Notes: generated from the letters alone by a model not told the origin. A stretch of 64,000 nucleotides of DNA from an uncultured Candidatus Saccharibacteria bacterium (GCA_964361595.1 CAYIAX010000002.1:7722-71721); one strand, 5' to 3'. Shown: positions 23,950-30,030, numbered from the stretch's first letter. Translations and numbers: made by a program.

Positions 23950-25479
23950 TTAATGCATCAACTCCTTAAGCAGGCTGCGGCCGTTCATGTCCTCCGGTTT
24001 GGGAATTCCCATGAGCTCCAGGATCGTGGGGGCAACATCTGCCAAGAGCCCGCCAGTTTCTTGGGCGAGATTAGGCCAGTTCACGAAACGCCGGCCTTTG
24101 AACTCTCGGCCAATGAGGTAAAAAGGCACCGGGCTGGGATTGTGGCCTGTCTCCGCGCGGCCGCTTAAGGGATCGAATAAGGTTTCAATATTGCCGTGAT
24201 CGGAGGTGATAATGAGGACTGTATCGGTTTTCAAAACCGCATCGAGTACGCGTCCGATCTCGCGATCAATAACCTTAACCGCCTCAAGCGCGGCTTCATA
24301 ATTGCCGGTATGCGCAATCGTGTCGGGATTCGAGTAGTTGGCCAAAACAAAATCGAAAGCGTTATTTTGGACGGAATCAATGATGCGGTCGCTTACCGCC
24401 GCGGCCATCAGTTCGGGCCGTTCGTCGGGATGGGGAATGGCCAAGGACGGAATGAGCACGCGATATTCATTTTTAAACGGAGATTCGCGATGGCCGTTAA
24501 AAAAGAAAGTAACATGGGCGTACTTGTAGGTTTCGGCCAAGCGCAGCTGGGTTTTGCCCGCGTCGCTCAAAACTTTGCCTAAGGGTTCTAAAACTCCTTC
24601 CGGCGGGAACGCCACATCTAAATTCAAGCTTTCTTCATAGCGGGTCATGGTAACGAGCTTCAGGTTGGCAATGCGTTTGCGTAGCAGTTGCGGCAGGTCG
24701 CCCGCGAAAGCTTCCACTAATTGGCGCATGCTGTCTTCGCGGAAGTTGAAAAAAATCAGGCTCTCGTTGTCTTTAATCGCTCCGTCCGGTTTGAGCCGCA
24801 AGGGCGGAATGAATTCTTCCGTAAACCCCTTGGCGTAGGTTTCGCGGATCGTCGCGCCCAAGTCGTGAACCAAGTTGCCGCCTTCGCCCACTAAACATTC
24901 GTACGCGCGGCCCGTAAGCATCCATTTTTTTGTCCGGTCCATGGCGTAATATCTGCCCGTTAAGGTCGCCAAATTTTCCATCGGGATTTTCTCGAGCAGT
25001 TCCTCCAGGGAATGCGGCGGGCCATCCTTGCCGTCCGCGAAAAGGTGGAGCTTGAAGGGAATTTGCTTTTTTTTGGCAAGCTCGATTAGAGCCAAAAGAT
25101 GGTCAAGCGAGGCATGAACGGTGGCTTTGGTCAAAAGTCCTACCAGGTTCACGGCGGTTTTATTTTTTTCGGCGTGCTCCATAGCGGAAACCAGCGCCGG
25201 ATTCGAAAAAAAAGTTTCGTCCTGGATTGCCATCGTGATCCGCGGGAAGTATTGGTAAATTATTTTCCCGGCGCCCAAAGTGAGGTGCCCCACTTCGCTG
25301 TTGCCCACATCCCCCCAGGGCAGGCCGACGCTGATGCCGGAGGCCTGCAGACTCGTCATCGGATAATTTTCCGCGAGCCAATTGAATTTTTCCGGATTAA
25401 CAATGTAGACGGGATTTGCTTCTGTGGCCGGACCCAAACCCCAGCCGTCCAGGATGATCATGACGACGTTTCTTTTCAT
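23950..25479 (-). CDS. gpmI: 2,3-bisphosphoglycerate-independent phosphoglycerate mutase
   Basis: MKRNVVMIILDGWGLG N-terminus and the metalloenzyme-domain motif SDHGN. Confidence 0.85.
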   Translation of the reverse strand: MKRNVVMIILDGWGLGPATEANPVYIVNPEKFNWLAENYPMTSLQASGISVGLPWGDVGNSEVGHLTLGAGKIIYQYFPRITMAIQDETFFSNPALVSAMEHAEKNKTAVNLVGLLTKATVHASLDHLLALIELAKKKQIPFKLHLFADGKDGPPHSLEELLEKIPMENLATLTGRYYAMDRTKKWMLTGRAYECLVGEGGNLVHDLGATIRETYAKGFTEEFIPPLRLKPDGAIKDNESLIFFNFREDSMRQLVEAFAGDLPQLLRKRIANLKLVTMTRYEESLNLDVAFPPEGVLEPLGKVLSDAGKTQLRLAETYKYAHVTFFFNGHRESPFKNEYRVLIPSLAIPHPDERPELMAAAVSDRIIDSVQNNAFDFVLANYSNPDTIAHTGNYEAALEAVKVIDREIGRVLDAVLKTDTVLIITSDHGNIETLFDPLSGRAETGHNPSPVPFYLIGREFKGRRFVNWPNLAQETGGLLADVAPTILELMGIPKPEDMNGRSLLKELMH

Positions 25480-25564
25480 TAATCTAAGTTTAAACCAGAA
25501 CTTGTTTCGAATATATAGAAGCAGGCAGGCCTCGCCGTGGCTGTGTTGCGCGGCCAAAGCCGTC

Positions 25565-25596
25565 TATTTGCGATAATTTTGTTATTATGGTATAAT
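25565..25596 (+). promoter_or_regulatory. Candidate sigma70 promoter with an extended -10 (TTGCGA-17 bp-TGGTATAAT) upstream of the DGR target gene
   Basis: Sequence match only. Confidence 0.4.
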
Positions 25597-25633
25597 TTAA
25601 AGGTACTTTGAAATAATAAAAAACTTGCGATAT

Positions 25634-25680
25634 TTGCCATGGCTGAAAGCGCTTTTGTTTAGAGCTTTTTCAGCCATGGC
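25634..25680 (+). promoter_or_regulatory. 14-bp perfect inverted repeat (tgccatggctgaaa ... tttcagccatggca) in the 5' leader of the DGR target gene
   Basis: Lies between the putative promoter and the RBS (aaggaga-7 nt-ATG at 25728). Confidence 0.5.
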
Positions 25681-25727
25681 AAACTCCGAACAGTCGGAGA
25701 GCCCACTGGCAGAAAAGGAGACACCCC

Positions 25728-26432
25728 ATGTCGGAACATGGAACACCTCTGACGACTGTGCGCTTGCGGAAGCTATCGGGAACGGTAGTTCTCAATCTTC
25801 CCGAGATTGATTCCGAGCTGGCGCTCGACTTTTCCAATAACGCCGACGCTCTCGCGATTGTTCTTGAGCGGGCGCTGACTCGCGAGAACCTCGACGCGGC
25901 TTTGGTCGAGCTTGGGAAGAAACGACCCGAACCGAAAAAGCCCATCGAGCACGTCGGCGACTGTTTCCGCGAAACCGGCGAACTCGCGGGAACGATGATC
26001 CAAATCCCCGCCCTCCCGCGCCCGACTCTCGCGGAACTCCGGGAAAAGTTTCCCTGGATCCGAGGAGAGAACGGCATTGAGCGTGACATCTCCCCAGAGG
26101 GAGCTGTAACGCTTGTTCTGGGTACGGTGCTCCGTGAAGGAGAGCCGTCGATTAGCGGCCTGGAATACGAGCGCCGCCTCGCGCTCGTCAGTCGCCCGCT
26201 CTTCGGCTACCAGCAACTCGCCTGGCTCGTCGAGCATCAGGACGAGCACCCCGTTTTCAAGGCTCTTCTGGGACAGATTTATATCGACGGCCCGGGCCTT
26301 GTGGTGGTGATCGATGACGGCGTCCGGTACTTCCCGTCTCTTGATCAGATCGGCAAGCGGTGGAACCTGGATTTGCACTGGATCGGCCGCGGTCTGTACT
26401 CGCGCGGCCGGATCGCCTCCGGTAAGCAGTAA
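25728..26432 (+). CDS. DGR target (variable) protein, 234 aa, with the VR at its C-terminus and no signal peptide
   Basis: The C-terminal 40 aa are encoded by the VR. RBS AAGGAGA. Confidence 0.7.
   Translation: MSEHGTPLTTVRLRKLSGTVVLNLPEIDSELALDFSNNADALAIVLERALTRENLDAALVELGKKRPEPKKPIEHVGDCFRETGELAGTMIQIPALPRPTLAELREKFPWIRGENGIERDISPEGAVTLVLGTVLREGEPSISGLEYERRLALVSRPLFGYQQLAWLVEHQDEHPVFKALLGQIYIDGPGLVVVIDDGVRYFPSLDQIGKRWNLDLHWIGRGLYSRGRIASGKQ
26299..26419 (+). repeat. DGR variable repeat (VR)
   Basis: About 121 bp homologous to 26764-26884. At least 15 mismatches, every one at a TR adenine (e.g. AAC to ATC, GTC, TAC, CAC, CGC). Confidence 0.85.
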
Positions 26433-26485
26433 ATCTTAATCTCTTGGGTTCTTGGGATTTTTAATCCCTTAAACCCTTAACACCA

Positions 26486-26514
26486 AGCCCTTGCGCTCCG
26501 CGCAAGGGCTTTTT
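26486..26514 (+). terminator. GC-rich hairpin with a 4-nt loop plus T-run (agcccttgcgc tccg gcgcaagggct ttttt) 67 nt downstream of the VR. It could act as a terminator and as a DGR homing-associated stem-loop.
   Basis: 10-bp stem plus T5. Confidence 0.6.
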
Positions 26515-26763
26515 CAATCGTGATATGATCAACGCGGATAGTAGGCGATCTGTGTATGGCCAAGGTTATGCACGGCCGAATTCCCGGACAGCACCTGCCG
26601 GAACGGGAGCGGACAAGTCTTCTCCCAGTGTGCGGCGCTGGTTCGCAAATTTCTTTTGCTGCTTGGTGCGTAAAACTAAGGAATTACAGATTCCGGATAC
26701 GATTCAATCCAGAGACCTTTTTGGCGGATCGAAGGATGGTGGTTATGGCGGTTTTTCGCACAA

Positions 26764-26884
26764 TTGTGGTGGTGAACGATGACGGCAACCGGAACTTCCC
26801 GTATCTTGATCAGAACGGCAAGCGGTGGAACCTGAATTTGAACTGGATCGACAACGATCTGAACTCGAACGGCCGGATCGCCTC
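26764..26884 (+). repeat. DGR template repeat (TR). The ORF 26556-26900 is an artefact of TR/VR homology.
   Basis: Invariant, adenine-rich (AAC/AAT codons) copy of the VR. Located between the target gene and avd/RT. Confidence 0.85.
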
Positions 26885-26927
26885 TGGCCAGAAGCAATAG
26901 GAAATAAGGCAGGGCTCGGCGGAATGT

Positions 26928-27341
26928 TTATTTGGATAGCTGGCGTAGCCAGCCGCCGAGCATCTTGCCGATCTCGTCCAATGGTTCAGATAAAATAATG
27001 TATTTTTTGTTGTCGAGCGATTTTATGCGCCAGGCGATTTCCAGGAAAAACTTCGCAAGGTTCAACTTGGCCGCCGCCTGCTCTATATAGGGATATTTTT
27101 TATCCCTCGGTAGAAAAATCGCGGTATATACCGATTCGATTGTTTCAATAAACAATGAATCTATTTTATCACCCAATGTATAACGGGATATTTTCGGGAT
27201 ATGAACGGTAAATTCATGCCAAATTTCATAAGCCCGAACGAGCCGCTCGATTATCGGCAGATTGAGGTTCCCGGGGGGGGGGTTACGTGGAATGAGTTTT
27301 GCATGGATTATGAAATTCAGAAACACTTTTGAGGAAATCAT
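26928..27341 (-). CDS. avd: Avd-like accessory variability determinant (four-helix-bundle, 23S-rRNA-IVS protein family). Encoded antisense to the RT, with a C10 homopolymer in its 5' region.
   Basis: ...YTLGDKIDSLFIETIESVYTAIFLP...LNLAKFFLEIAWRIKSLDNKKYIILSEPLDEIGKMLGGWLRQL is four-helix-bundle-like. The C-run at 27274-27283 encodes NPPPG. Confidence 0.55.
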   Translation of the reverse strand: MISSKVFLNFIIHAKLIPRNPPPGNLNLPIIERLVRAYEIWHEFTVHIPKISRYTLGDKIDSLFIETIESVYTAIFLPRDKKYPYIEQAAAKLNLAKFFLEIAWRIKSLDNKKYIILSEPLDEIGKMLGGWLRQLSK

Positions 27342-28338
27342 CTCGGCTGAAAACCTGCTGATGGCCTGGCGGGAGTTCCTTTACGGCAAGCGCGGGAAGC
27401 CGGATGTGCAGGAATTCCAAATGCGGCTTATGGATAATATTTTCGCACTGCGGGACGAACTTGTAAACAAAACCTATAAACACGGCGGCTACAAGCATTT
27501 CCGGATCTCCGACCCGAAGCCGAGAGATATCCATAAGGCAGGCGTCCGCGACCGCCTGCTCCATCATGCCGTCTACCGCATTTTATACCCGCTGTTCGAC
27601 AAGACTTTCATTACCGATTCATATTCCTGCCGGTTGGGAAAAGGGACGCACCGGGCCTTAAACAAATTCCGGGCATTTGCGTATAAAGTTAGCCAAAATA
27701 ATACAAAAACCTGCTGGGTATTGAAGTGCGACATCCGCAAGTTCTTTGCAAGCATAGATCACGAAGTCCTCGCAAGAATTCTCGAGAAATATATAAAAGA
27801 CGAGGATACGATCTGGTTGCTCCAAAAAGTCATCGAAAGTTTTTCATCCACCCGCCCGGGCGTTGGCCTTCCCCTCGGCAATCTTACCTCCCAGCTGCTC
27901 GTCAATATCTATATGAATGAATTCGACCAGTTTATGAAACACGGTTCGACAAATTTCGACTCCGAGCTCGACTCGAGGAGCTTACCGCAGGCAAGAGCGA
28001 AATATTATATCCGCTATGCGGACGATTTTGTAATTCTGTCGGATAGCAGAAAATGGCTTGAACATTTAATCCCGATCATCCAAAAATTTCTGTTTGAGAA
28101 ATTAAAATTAAACCTGCATCCGAACAAAATCTCGATTAAAACCCTGGCTTCCGGAGTTGATTATCTTGGGTGGGTTCATTTTCCCGATCACCGGGTCTTG
28201 CGGACAAGCACGAAGCGGCGGATGCTGAAGCGGATTAAAACATTGCCATCGCCGGAAACAATGAATTCATATCTGGGACTTCTAAAGCATGGGAATACGC
28301 GGAAGATAAGAAAATCCAGTTTTCAGTGGTTTGTATAA
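27292..28338 (+). CDS. DGR reverse transcriptase
   Basis: RT motifs, including the DGR-type LPLGNLTSQLLVNIYMNEFD (IGxxxSQ in place of the group-II QG) and YADDFVIL. Confidence 0.85.
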   Translation: MSFAWIMKFRNTFEEIISAENLLMAWREFLYGKRGKPDVQEFQMRLMDNIFALRDELVNKTYKHGGYKHFRISDPKPRDIHKAGVRDRLLHHAVYRILYPLFDKTFITDSYSCRLGKGTHRALNKFRAFAYKVSQNNTKTCWVLKCDIRKFFASIDHEVLARILEKYIKDEDTIWLLQKVIESFSSTRPGVGLPLGNLTSQLLVNIYMNEFDQFMKHGSTNFDSELDSRSLPQARAKYYIRYADDFVILSDSRKWLEHLIPIIQKFLFEKLKLNLHPNKISIKTLASGVDYLGWVHFPDHRVLRTSTKRRMLKRIKTLPSPETMNSYLGLLKHGNTRKIRKSSFQWFV

Positions 28339-28506
28339 CAACCCGAAAGATTGACGCAGGGAACGAGAGGCTGTATGCTTAAACCAAAGAGTCACTAATC
28401 TATGTCTTAAACGCGCCAGTGCCAAATTTGAACGTCATCACAGTTTTGGCTGCGACAAACCGCCCTGGGGCGGCAATTTGGCGTGTTGAAGAACAAATAA
28501 AAAACC

Positions 28507-30030
28507 ATGCAAATTTCGTTGCCAGTCTTAATCGGCGGATCCGTAGTTTTGCTCCTCGCGGGGTATTTTCTCCGTCGTTATCTTGCGGCGCGCGACAGTA
28601 AATCTTTAGAATCGGAAGCGGAGCGCAAGGTTCGCGAAGCGGAAACGGAAGGAAAAAAGATAATAGTCGAGGCCAAAGAAAAGGCCGCCGCGGTTTTGGG
28701 CGAAGCGCAGAAGGAAGAAAGAGAAAGAAAGAGCCAGATTACGTCCTTGGAGTCGCGCTTGTTCCAGCGCGAAGAAATGTTGGACAAGAAGCTCATCGGC
28801 CTTTCCGAAGAAGAAACCAAGTTGCGGGCTAAAAACGATGAGCTGAAGCAGGCCGAGGCCAAAGTCGAATCTTTACGCAACGATATTCTAGCCCAGCTTG
28901 AAAAAGTTGCCGGCTTGTCCAAGGAGGCAGCCCGGGAGGAACTCTTCAATCAAATTAAAAAGAAGGGGCAAGAAGACTTGGGCCAGCTTTTGCAGAAAAT
29001 TGAAAAAGAAAAGCGCGACGAGATCGAAAAGAAAGCTTTGGATGTGATCACAATCGCTCTACAGCGTTATGCGCGCTCACACGTGGCCGAGATTACCACC
29101 ACGATTTTCCCTTTAGGCGACGAAGAGCTTAAGGGCAAGATCATCGGGCGGGAAGGCAGGAACATCCGCGCCCTGGAGCGCGCAACCGGCGTAGAATTTG
29201 TGATTGACGAAACGCCCGACAGCATCATCATTTCTTCCTTTGATCCGTATCGGCGAGAAATTGCCCGCTTAGCTTTGGGCAAACTCATCAAGGACGGCCG
29301 CATCCAACCCGCGAAAATCGAAGAGAAAGTGGAGGAAGCTAAAGCTGAACTTGCAAAACGTATCGAAGAAATTGGCGAAGCGGCGGCAACCGAGGTTGGC
29401 GTCTATGACCTGCCAAAGGAAATTTTGCAGCTTTTAGGCAGACTGCATTTCCGGACGAGCTACGGCCAGAATGTGCTTGTCCATTCGATCGAAATGGCTC
29501 ATATCTCTGCAATGATGGCGGCAGAGCTGGGGCTAAACGTAGAGGTCGCTAAGAAAGGCGCGCTCGTGCATGATATCGGCAAAGCGATTGACCACGAAGT
29601 GGAAGGCACGCACGTGGAGCTCGGCATGAAAATTCTTCGCAAGTACGGCGTGAACGAAGCGGTTATCCAAGCCATGCAGTCGCACCATGAAGATTATCCG
29701 TATGCGAGCCCTGAAGCCTACATCGTAACGGCCGCGGATGCCTTATCCGCCGCGAGACCCGGCGCGCGGCGGGACAGCTTGGAAAATTACGTAAAGCGCC
29801 TTACCGATCTTGAAAAAATCGCCACGGATTTTCCCGGCGTAAAACAAGCCTATGCGATCGCGGCCGGGCGGGAATTGCGGGTTTTTGTTGTGCCGGAGAA
29901 GATTGATGACTTCCGCGCCTTGGAGCTTGCGCGTGAAATTGCCAATCGCATCCAATCCGAGTTACAATATCCTGGTGAGATTAAGGTGAATGTTATCCGT
30001 GAAATAAGAGCCGTTGAGTACGCCAGATAA
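28507..30030 (+). CDS. rny: Ribonuclease Y
   Basis: N-terminal TM helix, a KH domain (KGKIIGREGRNIRALE) and an HD domain (HSIEMAHISAMMA...LVHDIGK). Confidence 0.85.
   Translation: MQISLPVLIGGSVVLLLAGYFLRRYLAARDSKSLESEAERKVREAETEGKKIIVEAKEKAAAVLGEAQKEERERKSQITSLESRLFQREEMLDKKLIGLSEEETKLRAKNDELKQAEAKVESLRNDILAQLEKVAGLSKEAAREELFNQIKKKGQEDLGQLLQKIEKEKRDEIEKKALDVITIALQRYARSHVAEITTTIFPLGDEELKGKIIGREGRNIRALERATGVEFVIDETPDSIIISSFDPYRREIARLALGKLIKDGRIQPAKIEEKVEEAKAELAKRIEEIGEAAATEVGVYDLPKEILQLLGRLHFRTSYGQNVLVHSIEMAHISAMMAAELGLNVEVAKKGALVHDIGKAIDHEVEGTHVELGMKILRKYGVNEAVIQAMQSHHEDYPYASPEAYIVTAADALSAARPGARRDSLENYVKRLTDLEKIATDFPGVKQAYAIAAGRELRVFVVPEKIDDFRALELAREIANRIQSELQYPGEIKVNVIREIRAVEYAR

What the first reader, a model, noticed from the sequence alone, without database searches (positions are those of the whole stretch)
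25560..28340. Complete diversity-generating retroelement (target/VR, TR, Avd, RT) with an unusual layout
Two ~121-bp near-identical segments are present: 26299-26419 inside the 3' end of the 25728-26432 gene, and 26764-26884 in intergenic DNA. They differ at 15 or more positions, and at every difference the intergenic copy has an A. That is the signature of DGR mutagenic retrohoming (TR adenines to random bases in the VR). The copy with Asn codons (AAC/AAT) is the template repeat. The genic copy encodes ...VIDDGVRYFPSLDQIGKRWNLDLHWIGRGLYSRGR, diversified at exactly those codons.

Downstream is a reverse transcriptase with the DGR-type LPLGNLTSQ motif and YADD, and a four-helix-bundle Avd-like gene. 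Two features are unusual:
- avd is encoded on the opposite strand, diverging from the RT.
- the target protein is small (234 aa), has no signal peptide and no obvious C-type-lectin signature. This suggests a cytoplasmic or novel-fold variable ligand-binding protein.
Basis: partly seen in the sequence, partly recalled or inferred. Interest (0 to 1): 0.8.

Follow-up and report, generated by a model that had tools for sequence, protein, structure and literature searches.

The report
CPR-type diversity-generating retroelement with 5′ leader RNA
This is a genuine, intact diversity-generating retroelement of the kind already known to be standard in tiny groundwater (CPR) bacteria, so its "odd" layout is ordinary; the less expected part is a conserved, structured RNA leader in front of the template that seems to do the job the downstream spacer RNA does in the textbook phage system.

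Summary
VR 26299-26419 and TR 26764-26884 differ at 15 of 121 positions, all at TR adenines (P≈6e-11). The RT is DGR-type: it is 30% identical to Bordetella phage Brt along its full length. Avd passes Pfam's bAvd cutoff.

The two "unusual" features are not unusual. TR-(avd)-RT is architecture B3 of Wu et al. 2018, which covers 90% of CPR DGRs. CPR targets are typically small and lack signal peptides or known domains.

A sister element is demonstrably active: three near-identical contigs differ almost only at A-templated VR positions.

New here: a 227-nt covarying leader (26536-26763) lies 5′ of the TR. One continuous strand pairs with the TR 3′ flank and then the TR 5′ flank. This is the connectivity of BPP-1's primer and stop strands, but upstream of the TR instead of downstream.

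Also new: a hypermutable repeat sits at the avd 5′ end.

Verdict: a new member of a known kind, with an RNA-level twist worth testing.

The parts
25728..26432 (+). Target (variable-protein) gene, 234 aa. The N-terminal ~75 aa are poorly conserved. Residues ~80-234 form a conserved CLec-like domain.
26299..26419 (+). Variable repeat (VR), covering residues 191-231 of the target.
   Evidence: 15/15 mismatches to the TR fall at TR adenines. The variable positions lie on the C-terminal beta-strands and loops of the model.
26406..26435 (+). IMH-like end of the VR. It has a GC-rich block GGCCGGATCGCCTC (26406-26419), identical in the TR, followed by the VR-specific flank GTAAGCAGTAAATC (26422-26435) across the stop codon.
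   Evidence: The flank is complementary to leader strand 26653-26665 (6 WC + 1 GU + 3 WC). It carries a compensatory T>C/A>G change relative to the family consensus.
26446..26476 (+). Hairpin 14 nt downstream of the target stop codon. It is a candidate equivalent of the homing-enhancing stem-loop that follows the BPP-1 VR.
   Evidence: DNA and RNA folds have z-scores of -6.1 and -5.2 for 26405-26525. The cross-family alignment gives only weak support, with 3 covarying pairs.
26485..26514 (+). Intrinsic terminator of the target gene: a 12-bp GC stem, a 3-nt loop and a T5 run.
   Evidence: Equivalent hairpins plus T-runs occur in most relatives.
26520..26529 (+). Extended -10-like element (GTGATATGAT), 7 nt upstream of the leader start. 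It is the inferred promoter of the TR RNA.
   Evidence: TGnTAnnAT is conserved at a fixed distance from GGATAGTAG in all 11 elements. Transcription itself was not tested.
26536..26763 (+). Structured 5' leader of the TR RNA. Its elements are: two compound hairpins (26536-26646); the primer-like strand (26653-26665); the stop-like strand (26666-26677); the hairpin GGAAT/ATTCC (26680-26694); a conserved A-rich single strand (26695-26706); a hairpin (26707-26737); and the stop-partner strand (26750-26761).
   Evidence: Nucleotide conservation in 11 loci. RNAalifold gives 95 pairs, 42 with double changes. For 74 pairs in 10 helices, 95.3% of cells are paired against 39-51% in slid controls; 41 pairs have double changes against 7-13; 0/500 shuffles reach the observed values. 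There are many G.U pairs, so the + strand is the folded one. No Rfam family matches. CM R1 scores 105.5 bits here and 43-79 bits next to B3-type RTs with other targets.
26764..26884 (+). Template repeat (TR): 31 adenines and 11 AAY codons.
   Evidence: Theoretical diversity is about 1e18-1e19. Only one codon (AAG, K210) can mutate to a stop codon.
26885..26903 (+). IMH*-like 3' flank of the TR. Positions 26891-26903 form the 3' arm of long-range helix H6 with leader strand 26653-26665.
   Evidence: H6 has 12 pairs, 5 with double changes, and 93.9% of cells paired. Its distal part covaries with the TR flank within the family and across lineages. In the window itself the duplex is interrupted, at -15.2 kcal/mol.
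26914..26961 (+). Stem-loop just downstream of the TR (arms GCTCGGCGG 26914-26922 and CCGCCGAGC 26953-26961), enclosing the avd stop codon. It is a candidate Avd-binding stem-loop and/or a shared terminator for the convergent TR RNA and avd mRNA.
   Evidence: Present in all 11 loci, with -31 to -50 kcal/mol over 120 nt and compensatory changes in L006 and L023. Handa et al. predict Avd-binding stem-loops just downstream of the TR, including in CPR DGRs.
26928..27341 (-). avd (accessory variability determinant), 137 aa if it starts at ATG 27341.
   Evidence: Pfam bAvd PF22296 scores 43.0 bits against a cutoff of 40. NCBIfam DivGenRetAVD scores 66.6 bits, below its cutoff of 80. Identity to relatives' Avd is 56-69%. 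Only the C-terminal 17 aa align to BPP-1 Avd.
27273..27282 (.). Homopolymeric G10 (C10 on the avd-sense strand) at the 5' end of avd, 27 nt upstream of RT ATG 27310. It is a candidate slipped-strand ON/OFF switch.
   Evidence: The tract lies at a fixed distance from the Avd N-terminus in all family members, with length 7-11. It is replaced by (GT)13 in L001 and (CT)20 in L070, and L061 has G8. It is absent in 0/40 B1-type elements. Frame is ON in the window, L010 and L032, and OFF in L022, L035 and L041.
27310..28338 (+). DGR reverse transcriptase, 342 aa (an alternative in-frame ATG lies at 27292). It overlaps the avd 5' end divergently.
   Evidence: RVT_1 at 5.6e-24. The best solved relative is 8ub7_A at 2.4e-39, against about 1e-21 for group II RTs. 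It is 30% identical to BPP-1 Brt over the full length, E 8e-49, with R74 conserved, I181 replaced by L, and motifs LGNLTSQ and YADD.

Best explanation
SHOWN. The locus is an intact chromosomal DGR of the CPR-specific type, with gene order target/VR - TR - avd(reverse) - RT. It sits between housekeeping genes (iPGM and RNase Y) in a Parcubacteria genome from Hainich groundwater. The TR differs from the VR only at adenines. The RT is a DGR-clade enzyme and Avd is present. A sister element of the same family is diversifying in nature. A 227-nt RNA structure with strong covariation lies directly 5' of the TR. In it, one continuous strand pairs first with the TR's 3' flank (H6) and then with the 12 nt just 5' of the TR (H7), so the TR is held as a closed loop.

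INFERRED (about 0.6). The TR RNA is transcribed from its own extended -10 promoter at about 26536. The leader recruits RT-Avd. The H6 leader strand acts as the cis-primer (priming nucleotide near G26665). cDNA synthesis starts at the last TR base before H6 and misincorporates opposite adenines. It stops at H7, the equivalent of BPP-1's cPRT-stop duplex. The RNA-linked cDNA then anneals to the sense strand of the target. The primer strand pairs with the VR-specific IMH flank and so provides directionality (the Naorem 2017 model). The cDNA then replaces the VR.

The outcome is up to about 1e18 variants of the C-terminal CLec-like binding surface of a small, probably cytoplasmic protein whose ligand is unknown.

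Relative to BPP-1, the RNA has the same cyclic order of elements but is opened at a different point. Its functional non-coding part is therefore 5' rather than 3' of the TR.
For: TR/VR evidence:
- A-specific TR/VR differences: 15/15, P=5.6e-11.
- The same signature appears in 10 relatives.

Protein evidence:
- RT: closest solved relative is 8ub7 and identity to Brt is 30%.
- Avd passes the Pfam cutoff.

Layout and activity:
- The layout is conserved in at least 20 loci. It equals Wu et al.'s B3.
- Activity in the family: L036 vs L046 differ at 22 positions in 2057 nt, all in the VR, 21 of them at TR adenines. L036 vs L039 have 20 of 23 differences in the VR.

Leader RNA:
- Leader covariation.
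- The CM finds the leader beside B3-type RTs with other target families. It does not find it in B1-type elements or BPP-1.
- The distal H6 strand covaries with the TR flank across lineages.
- The A-mutagenesis boundary is sharp. TR adenines inside H6 are unchanged in 32/34 cases, while adenines 2-3 nt upstream can be mutated.
- The complement of the VR flank is in the leader (perfect runs of 8-12 nt in 11/14 loci), not downstream, where runs are 4-6 nt.

Comparison with BPP-1:
- The BPP-1 control reproduces the published primer/IMH asymmetry (Naorem 2017).
- The order of BPP-1 RNA elements is taken from Handa et al..
- Generic scan: the bipartite strand is downstream at +40 to +51 in 32/37 B1-type elements and upstream in 7/8 B3-type elements, Fisher P=1.2e-4.
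Against: - No expression, cDNA or read-level data exist for the window's own element. The only other contig carrying it is the same assembly.
- Several near-identical contig pairs of relatives show no VR change (L004/L034, L010/L048, L030/33/49), and many relatives are decayed. Activity is therefore intermittent at best.
- In the window itself H6 is interrupted (three 5-bp segments, -15.2 kcal/mol), and the VR-flank duplex is only 6+1+3 bp.
- The generic scan is ambiguous for the window and for BPP-1 taken individually.
- The 'VR pairs better than TR' asymmetry is absent in L058, L059 and L061.
- A conserved stem-loop also exists downstream of the TR. Part of the functional RNA may therefore still lie 3' of the TR, as Handa et al. 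assumed for CPR DGRs.
- The CM did not detect the leader in the more distant B3 elements L060 and L063-L068.
- NCBIfam's Avd model is below its cutoff.
Confidence: 0.85

Rival explanations
1. The element is a silent or decaying relic. The TR/VR differences record past mutagenic homing, but the cassette in this genome is no longer active, or is switched off most of the time.
For: Many relatives are clearly decayed. Some keep a target plus leader remnant plus only an RT C-terminal fragment, or no RT at all (L002, L005, L009, L011-L013, L024, L026, L028, L040). L029/L045 have a frameshifted RT and a diverged TR. Near-identical contig pairs with identical VRs exist. The avd frame depends on a mutable repeat and is OFF in several assemblies.
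Against: In the window every part is intact. The RT ORF carries all motifs. avd is in frame with ATG 27341. The leader scores 105.5 bits. The TR and VR have no non-A differences in 121 nt. A sister element is visibly diversifying.
Confidence: 0.25
2. The leader is a real structured RNA but not the priming scaffold. It would be, for example, a protein-binding platform or a regulatory/stabilising 5' UTR. Priming would then occur from sequence 3' of the TR (the downstream stem-loop and antisense-avd region), as in BPP-1.
For: A conserved stem-loop lies 20-35 nt downstream of the TR in all loci. Handa et al. report Avd-binding stem-loops and stop duplexes for CPR DGRs using 40 nt upstream plus 100 nt downstream. 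The bipartite-strand scan is ambiguous for the window itself (up -29.0, down -27.1).
Against: H6 and H7 covary (13 pairs between them have double changes). They place one continuous leader strand against both TR flanks. That is exactly the primer-then-stop connectivity of BPP-1 Sp47-70. No comparable complement of the TR/VR flank exists downstream. The A-mutagenesis boundary coincides with the end of H6. Only 13-44 nt separate the TR flank from the convergent avd stop.
Confidence: 0.3
3. The variable domain is a new fold rather than a C-type-lectin fold.
Confidence: 0.15
4. The two repeats are an ordinary duplicated gene fragment that diverged by neutral mutation. The RT would then belong to a group II intron or a retron.
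For: NCBIfam's best-scoring model for the RT is group II intron RT/maturase, at 149 bits.
Against: That score is far below the model's cutoff of 300, and NCBIfam returned no DGR RT model for comparison. All 15 differences fall at adenines of one copy (P=5.6e-11). The RT scores 139 bits to bRT against at most 81 bits for group II RTs. No group II intron or retron RNA is found by Rfam. Avd is present.
Confidence: 0.01

Closest known systems
CPR (Patescibacteria) DGRs: architecture B3 'TR-(avd)-RT' of Wu et al. 2018; DGR clade 2 of Roux et al. 2021; the survey of Paul et al. 2017
   Same: The gene order and the inverted avd match. The host lineage and groundwater habitat match. The target is small, without TM, signal or known domains, and its VR is C-terminal. 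The TR is rich in AAC codons. The window's element is a member of this class.
   Different: Nothing at the level of the cassette differs. The target family has no Pfam or NCBIfam model, and I could not check whether it is one of Wu's UVR1-6 classes because the supplements are not held. The 5' leader RNA and the avd repeat are not mentioned in the papers I could read. Paul et al. 2017 could not be read.
Bordetella phage BPP-1 DGR (mtd-avd-TR-Sp-brt), the mechanistic prototype
   Same: The RT is homologous over its full length (30% identity), with R74 and the (I/L/V)GxxxSQ motif. Both use an Avd cofactor, adenine-specific mutagenesis and a GC-rich block followed by divergent IMH/IMH* flanks. In both, an RNA strand pairs with the TR 3' end and is directly followed by a strand that pairs just 5' of the TR. 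In both, the primer strand is more complementary to the VR flank than to the TR flank.
   Different: avd is inverted and lies downstream of the TR. The structured non-coding RNA is a 227-nt 5' leader rather than a 140-nt 3' spacer, giving a permuted connectivity. The host is cellular and the location chromosomal, and the target is not a phage tail fibre. Avd is barely alignable to BPP-1 Avd. The post-VR hairpin is AT-rich and weak.
C-type-lectin-fold DGR variable proteins (Mtd 1yu0, TvpA 2y3c)
Retron msr-msd RNA
   Same: This is a topological analogy only. In both, the structured non-coding RNA and the priming strand lie 5' of the reverse-transcribed template. A helix between the 5' strand and the template's 3' end sets the initiation site.
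   Different: The RT is not of the retron clade (retron St85 model 54 bits against a cutoff of 235). The element has an Avd cofactor and a homologous VR target, and its mutagenesis is adenine-specific. Branch chemistry was not tested.

Membership tests
Diversity-generating retroelement (DGR) | A TR/VR pair whose differences fall almost only at TR adenines | tested here: met
   15/15 mismatches in 121 nt, P=5.6e-11.
Diversity-generating retroelement (DGR) | A reverse transcriptase of the DGR clade, with the (I/L/V)GxxxSQ motif 4 and YxDD, closer to bRT than to group II or retron RTs | tested here: met
   The motifs LPLGNLTSQ and YADD are present. bRT (8ub7) scores 139 bits against at most 81 bits for group II RTs. 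Identity to Brt is 30%, E 8e-49. No formal phylogeny or myDGR HMM run was possible.
Diversity-generating retroelement (DGR) | The VR lies inside the 3' end of a protein-coding target, and the TR is non-coding and close to the RT | tested here: met
   The VR covers residues 191-231 of a 234-aa ORF. The TR is 426 nt upstream of the RT start, in intergenic DNA. ORF 26556-26900 reads through the TR but overlaps the structured leader and is judged not to be a gene.
Diversity-generating retroelement (DGR) | An accessory Avd protein | tested here: met
   Pfam bAvd scores 43.0 bits against a cutoff of 40. The NCBIfam equivalog scores 66.6 bits, below its cutoff of 80, so membership rests on Pfam and on context.
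Diversity-generating retroelement (DGR) | IMH at the VR end, a differing IMH* at the TR end, and a downstream inverted repeat | tested here: inconclusive
   A GC-rich block is shared by both repeats and is followed by flanks that differ at non-A positions. A hairpin lies at 26446-26476, but cross-family support is weak. Function is not testable here.
Diversity-generating retroelement (DGR) | Ongoing mutagenic homing (population heterogeneity at A-templated VR positions) | not testable with these tools
   No reads are available, and the only other contig is the same assembly. The feature is met for the sister element L036/L039/L046.
DGR architecture B3 / CPR DGR clade | The order TR-(avd on the reverse strand)-RT, in a CPR host | tested here: met
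   Window coordinates. The same order appears in all intact relatives, which carry Parcubacteria/Patescibacteria record titles. The definition is in Wu et al..
C-type-lectin-fold variable proteins | The CLec fold topology, with the VR forming the C-terminal binding face | tested here: inconclusive
C-type-lectin-fold variable proteins | Sequence membership in a known CLec/FGE-sulfatase/DUF1566 family | tested here: not met
   No Pfam, NCBIfam or PDB sequence or profile match was found.
BPP-1-type DGR RNA (upstream strand - TR - 3' spacer) | The primer strand, stop strand and RT-binding elements are located in a spacer 3' of the TR | tested here: not met
   Only 31 nt lie between the end of TR homology and the convergent avd stop. 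The covarying primer-like and stop-like strands are 5' of the TR. B1-type elements keep them at +40 to +51.
BPP-1-type DGR RNA (upstream strand - TR - 3' spacer) | One strand pairs with the TR 3' end and is immediately followed by a strand pairing just 5' of the TR. The primer strand is also more complementary to the IMH than to the IMH*. | tested here: met
   H6 and H7 share a continuous strand at 26653-26677. The asymmetry holds in 14/17 family members and in L070, and partially in the window.
Group II intron / retron | The RT passes the family model, and the cognate RNA (intron domains or msr/msd) is present | tested here: not met
   TIGR04416 scores 149 bits against a cutoff of 300. Retron St85 scores 54 bits against a cutoff of 235. 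No Rfam match was found in 25400-28600.

The most novel reading that the evidence does not exclude
B3-type (CPR) DGRs use a circularly permuted DGR RNA. The cis-priming strand, the cPRT-stop strand, a short hairpin, an A-rich single strand and an RT-binding hairpin all sit in a ~230-nt 5' leader. This is a retron-like order, instead of the 3' spacer of BPP-1. The primer strand doubles as the guide that recognises the VR's IMH flank. In the sub-lineage that includes this window, DGR activity is additionally gated by a hypermutable simple-sequence repeat at the start of avd.
Probability: 0.5. Interest if true: 0.7.

Novelty: new member of a known kind. Interest (0 to 1): 0.5.

Why it matters
As a DGR, the locus adds one more example to a class already catalogued in thousands. 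It shows that a ~560-cluster family of unannotated Parcubacteria proteins are DGR targets, or ex-targets, with a very divergent lectin-like binding domain.

The part that could matter to specialists is the RNA. How DGR cDNA is primed, stopped and directed to the VR has been worked out only in one phage. The survey that extended the model to other taxa looked at 40 nt upstream and 100 nt downstream of the TR.

A natural variant that keeps the same strand connectivity but moves the scaffold to the 5' side gives three things:
- independent covariation-based support for the primer/stop-duplex model;
- independent support in a distant lineage for Naorem's idea that the RNA primer reads the IMH;
- a compact RNA-RT-Avd system from a minimal genome for reconstitution or engineering.

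The avd repeat, if real, would be a simple way for a cell to switch hypermutation on and off.

Tried and rejected
- Foldseek against afdb50 was unavailable. Foldseek against PDB gave nothing significant.
- A profile of the target family against PDB sequences gave only designed helical repeats, which is noise.
- Pfam scans of ten longer family members, looking for fused domains, found nothing usable.
- The first related-loci run, with the 50-sequence alignment, failed for lack of a conserved stretch. It was repeated with 12 sequences.
- L025 (Paracoccaceae, 26% identity) looked like a non-CPR relative of the target core. It is a chance hit inside an arginase-like ORF.
- Supplements of Wu et al. 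are not held, so the VR could not be matched to UVR1-6. Paul et al. 2017 is not held.
- The look-up of encoding contigs with Avd returned only the window's own assembly, so no population variants were obtained.
- I first thought that 'the primer strand complements the VR flank better than the TR flank' was new. It was published for BPP-1 by Naorem et al. 2017.
- A simple longest-perfect-run test for that complementarity in other B3 elements was indecisive. It was replaced by a CM search and a bipartite-strand energy scan.
- The Rfam hit to mir-4659 at 25625-25693 is a palindrome artefact, scoring 25.7 bits against a gathering threshold of 92.
- Motif hits L037, L043 and L054 (the last from a viral contig), which lack RT, avd and target, were not pursued.

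Full report
**1. The observation**

- At an ungapped offset of 465 nt, 26299-26419 (inside gene 25728-26432) and 26764-26884 (intergenic) differ at 15 of 121 positions.
- At all 15 the intergenic copy has A. That copy has 31 A, so the chance of this pattern is 5.6e-11.
- Homology continues for 13 more bases with five differences that are not A-specific. This is what is expected of an IMH/IMH* pair after a shared GC-rich block, GGCCGGATCGCCTC.
- The changed codons are almost all AAC/AAT in the template.
- The template holds 11 AAY codons and could specify about 1e18-1e19 variants. Only one codon (AAG, K210) can mutate to a stop.
- No second VR exists in the window.

**2. The proteins**

Reverse transcriptase. 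The ORF downstream (27310-28338; an in-frame ATG also lies at 27292) is a reverse transcriptase.
- Its best solved relative, by a wide margin, is 8ub7 chain A (2.4e-39, against about 1e-21 for group II intron RTs).
- I fetched the Bordetella phage BPP-1 record. The window's RT aligns with Brt end to end at 30% identity (E 8e-49). The alignment includes the residue equivalent to R74 and the LGNLTSQ and YADD motifs.
- NCBIfam returned no DGR RT model. Its best model (group II RT) scores at half its cutoff.

Avd. The minus-strand ORF 26928-27341 passes Pfam's bAvd threshold (43 against 40 bits). It falls short of NCBIfam's equivalog cutoff (66.6 against 80).

Rfam finds no intron or retron RNA.

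The DGR call is therefore secure.

**3. Is the layout unusual? No**

- Wu et al. 2018 define architecture B3 as TR-(avd)-RT with avd on the reverse strand. [quoted passage not shown]
- Every intact relative I recovered has this order: 10 loci from reference genomes, about 15 from metagenomes and 9 from the viral collection with other targets.
- The record titles are Parcubacteria, Paceibacterota, Sungiibacteriota, Liptonbacteria and the like.
- The window itself is identical to a contig from Hainich groundwater, 0.1 µm fraction.
- The cassette sits between iPGM and RNase Y genes and is not in a prophage.

**4. The target**

- It has no Pfam, NCBIfam or PDB sequence relatives, and a family profile finds none either.
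- It belongs to a family of about 210-aa CPR 'hypothetical proteins'. There are 149 clusters at 90% identity and 558 representatives at 50% identity, 165 of them below 1e-30.
- The family has a variable N-terminus, a conserved core and a C-terminal stretch that varies exactly at the Asn-templated positions.
- AlphaFold gives a very confident model for residues 76-234 (pLDDT 96.8, pTM 0.90).
- Foldseek finds nothing significant.
- I read this as a very divergent CLec-like domain. Roux et al. 2021 predicted exactly this for uncharacterised CPR VR domains. They also noted that CPR targets typically lack transmembrane or other conserved domains (PMC8144416).
- The protein has no hydrophobic segment, so a cytoplasmic location is plausible but unproven.

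**5. Is the family active?**

I could not test the window's own population. A sister element could be tested.
- Contigs L036, L039 and L046, from three samples, are near-identical.
- L036 vs L046 differ at 22 positions in 2,057 nt. All 22 are in the VR and 21 are at TR adenines.
- L036 vs L039 have 20 of 23 differences in the VR.

On the other hand, three other groups of near-identical contigs have identical VRs. Many family members are decayed:
- orphan targets with a leader remnant;
- RT C-terminal fragments fused directly behind the target;
- a frameshifted RT with a drifting TR.

**6. The non-coding anatomy, which is the unexpected part**

Conservation and structure.
- I aligned the interval from the target stop to the avd stop in 11 intact elements. 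The 227 nt directly 5' of the TR (window 26536-26763) is conserved at the nucleotide level.
- It starts at a shared GGATAGTAG, 7 nt after an extended -10-like TGnTAnnAT.
- RNAalifold predicts a structure in which 42 of 95 pairs show double compensatory changes.
- I counted the 74 leader pairs. 95.3% of cells are paired, against 39-51% when partners are slid by 1-3 columns. 41 pairs have changes on both sides, against 7-13. None of 500 shuffles reaches the observed values.
- Abundant G.U pairs show that the + strand, which is the TR sense strand, is the folded one.

Architecture, in order:
1. Two compound hairpins (26536-26646).
2. A continuous strand. Its first half (26653-26665) pairs with the sequence at the 3' edge of the TR (26891-26903; helix H6). 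Its second half (26666-26677) pairs with the 12 nt just 5' of the TR (26750-26761; helix H7).
3. A short hairpin (26680-26694).
4. A conserved A-rich single strand.
5. Another hairpin (26707-26737).

The TR is thus a closed loop. A further conserved stem-loop (26914-26961) encloses the avd stop codon just downstream.

**7. Comparison with the BPP-1 RNA**

According to Handa et al. (bioRxiv 10.1101/2023.10.23.563531), the BPP-1 RNA runs in this order:
1. upstream (avd) strand;
2. TR;
3. template strand TR117-129;
4. Avd-binding stem-loop;
5. primer strand Sp47-56;
6. stop strand, which pairs with the upstream strand;
7. short stem-loop plus adenosines;
8. single-stranded 'thumb ring';
9. bRT-binding stem-loop.

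The CPR leader has the same cyclic order: hairpins, primer-like strand, stop-like strand, short hairpin, A-rich single strand, hairpin, stop partner, TR, template strand. The chain is opened at a different place, so the functional RNA lies 5' of the TR.

Their survey of other taxa used only 40 nt upstream and 100 nt downstream of the TR. It would not have seen this leader.

Four further observations fit the reading that the H6 leader strand is the primer strand:
- **Covariation.** Its distal part covaries with the TR flank within the family and across lineages.
- **Mutagenesis boundary.** TR adenines inside H6 are unchanged in the VR in 32 of 34 cases, while adenines 2-3 nt upstream can be mutated. 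The mutagenesis boundary therefore coincides with the end of H6, as with A56/G117 in BPP-1.
- **VR-flank complementarity.** Its invariant proximal 9 nt are a perfect complement of the VR flank CAAGTAGCA in 14 of 17 distinct family members. The TR has CAACTGGCA instead, giving a mismatch and a wobble. The window carries a compensatory change. No such complement exists downstream of the TR.
- **BPP-1 control.** The same asymmetry holds in BPP-1. Sp47-56 pairs 9 WC + 1 GU with VR118-127, but 6 WC + 1 GU + 3 mismatches with TR118-127.

That last point is not new. Naorem et al. 2017 noted it and proposed that it explains homing directionality (PMC5703328). The CPR family is an independent confirmation. 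The asymmetry is absent in three other B3 elements, so I treat it as suggestive.

**8. Generality**

- A covariance model of the leader core finds it next to B3-type RTs that diversify unrelated targets: L061 79 bits, L070 79, L059 64 and L058 43.
- It also finds the leader as a remnant beside orphan targets.
- It does not find it in B1-type elements, in BPP-1, or in the more distant B3 elements L060 and L063-L068.
- A model-free scan looked for a strand whose 5' half pairs with the TR 3' flank and whose 3' half pairs with the TR 5' flank. In B1-type elements it lies downstream at +40 to +51 in 32 of 37 loci, which matches the mapped Sp47-70. In B3-type elements it lies upstream in 7 of 8 loci. 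Fisher P = 1.2e-4.
- The scan is noisy for single loci, including the window and BPP-1.

**9. A second thing noticed: a repeat at the avd 5' end**

- On the avd-sense strand, a start codon is followed at once by poly-C. In the window this is C10, which is + strand G10 at 27273-27282. It lies about 10 nt before the conserved Avd N-terminus.
- The tract is present in all family members, with 7-11 units. It is replaced by (GT)13 in L001 and (CT)20 in L070. It is G8 in L061. It is absent from 40 B1-type elements.
- The assembled length puts avd in frame in the window, L010 and L032, and out of frame in L022, L035 and L041.
- This looks like a contingency switch on Avd and hence on mutagenesis. Homopolymer lengths in short-read assemblies are unreliable, so read-level data are needed.
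- I found no paper linking DGRs to such repeats.

**10. Verdict**

The finding is real and correctly identified as a DGR, but the reasons given for high interest do not hold. The layout and the domain-less small target are the known norm for CPR DGRs. The fold is most likely a divergent C-type lectin.

It is a new member of a known kind.

The interest lies in the covarying 5' leader, which implies a permuted DGR RNA, and to a lesser degree in the avd repeat. Both are supported by comparative evidence only and need the experiments listed.

Noticed in passing
One continuous strand pairs with both TR flanks. No Rfam family matches it. It travels with B3-type RT/Avd regardless of the target family.
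   Followed up: yes
window 27273-27282; same site in L001, L061, L070 and all family members: A hypermutable simple-sequence repeat sits at the 5' end of avd. It is G10 here, (GT)13 in L001, (CT)20 in L070 and G8 in L061. It puts avd in or out of frame in different assemblies, so it is a candidate phase-variation switch for the DGR. It is absent from 40 B1-type elements.
   Followed up: partly
L036 6388-6533, L039, L046: Three near-identical contigs from three samples differ almost exclusively at A-templated VR positions (22/22 and 20/23 differences lie in the VR). This is direct evidence of natural DGR activity in a sister element.
   Followed up: yes
L002, L005, L009, L011-L013, L024, L026, L028, L040; L029/L045: Many family members are decayed cassettes. 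Some are orphan targets that keep a recognisable leader remnant. Some have RT C-terminal fragments fused just behind the target. One pair has a frameshifted RT and a drifting TR. The genome VMFS01 carries two such target copies (L002, L011).
   Followed up: partly
window 26914-26961: A conserved stem-loop has arms that flank the avd stop codon. The 3' arm lies in the codons for Avd's C-terminal MLGGW. It shows compensatory changes in L006 and L023. It could be an Avd-binding stem-loop, a bidirectional terminator for the convergent TR RNA and avd mRNA, or both.
   Followed up: partly
window 25633-25683: A 21-nt inverted repeat (90% complementary, 9-nt loop) lies in the 5' untranslated region of the target gene, just downstream of a good sigma-70-like promoter (25568-25596). 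It produced a spurious weak Rfam miRNA hit. It may be an operator or attenuator. Its conservation was not checked.
   Followed up: no
window 26556-26900: A 114-aa ORF reads through the TR in the VR's frame. It overlaps the structured leader and is best explained by the TR's homology to coding sequence, not as a gene.
   Followed up: partly
L061 3-761 and 1856-2797: This contig carries an RT followed by a second cassette (leader, TR, avd). That indicates two DGRs in tandem.
   Followed up: no
L014 (record labelled Nanoarchaeota archaeon): A target-family homolog (53% identity) occurs on a 6-kb contig binned as an archaeon. This is either misbinning or transfer between co-occurring ultrasmall lineages.
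   Followed up: no
L037, L043, L054 (L054 is an IMG/VR contig): Three contigs match the leader motif pattern and share a conserved upstream sequence. They have no detectable RT, avd or target homolog nearby, and the CM does not hit them. This is probably chance, but it is unexplained.
   Followed up: no
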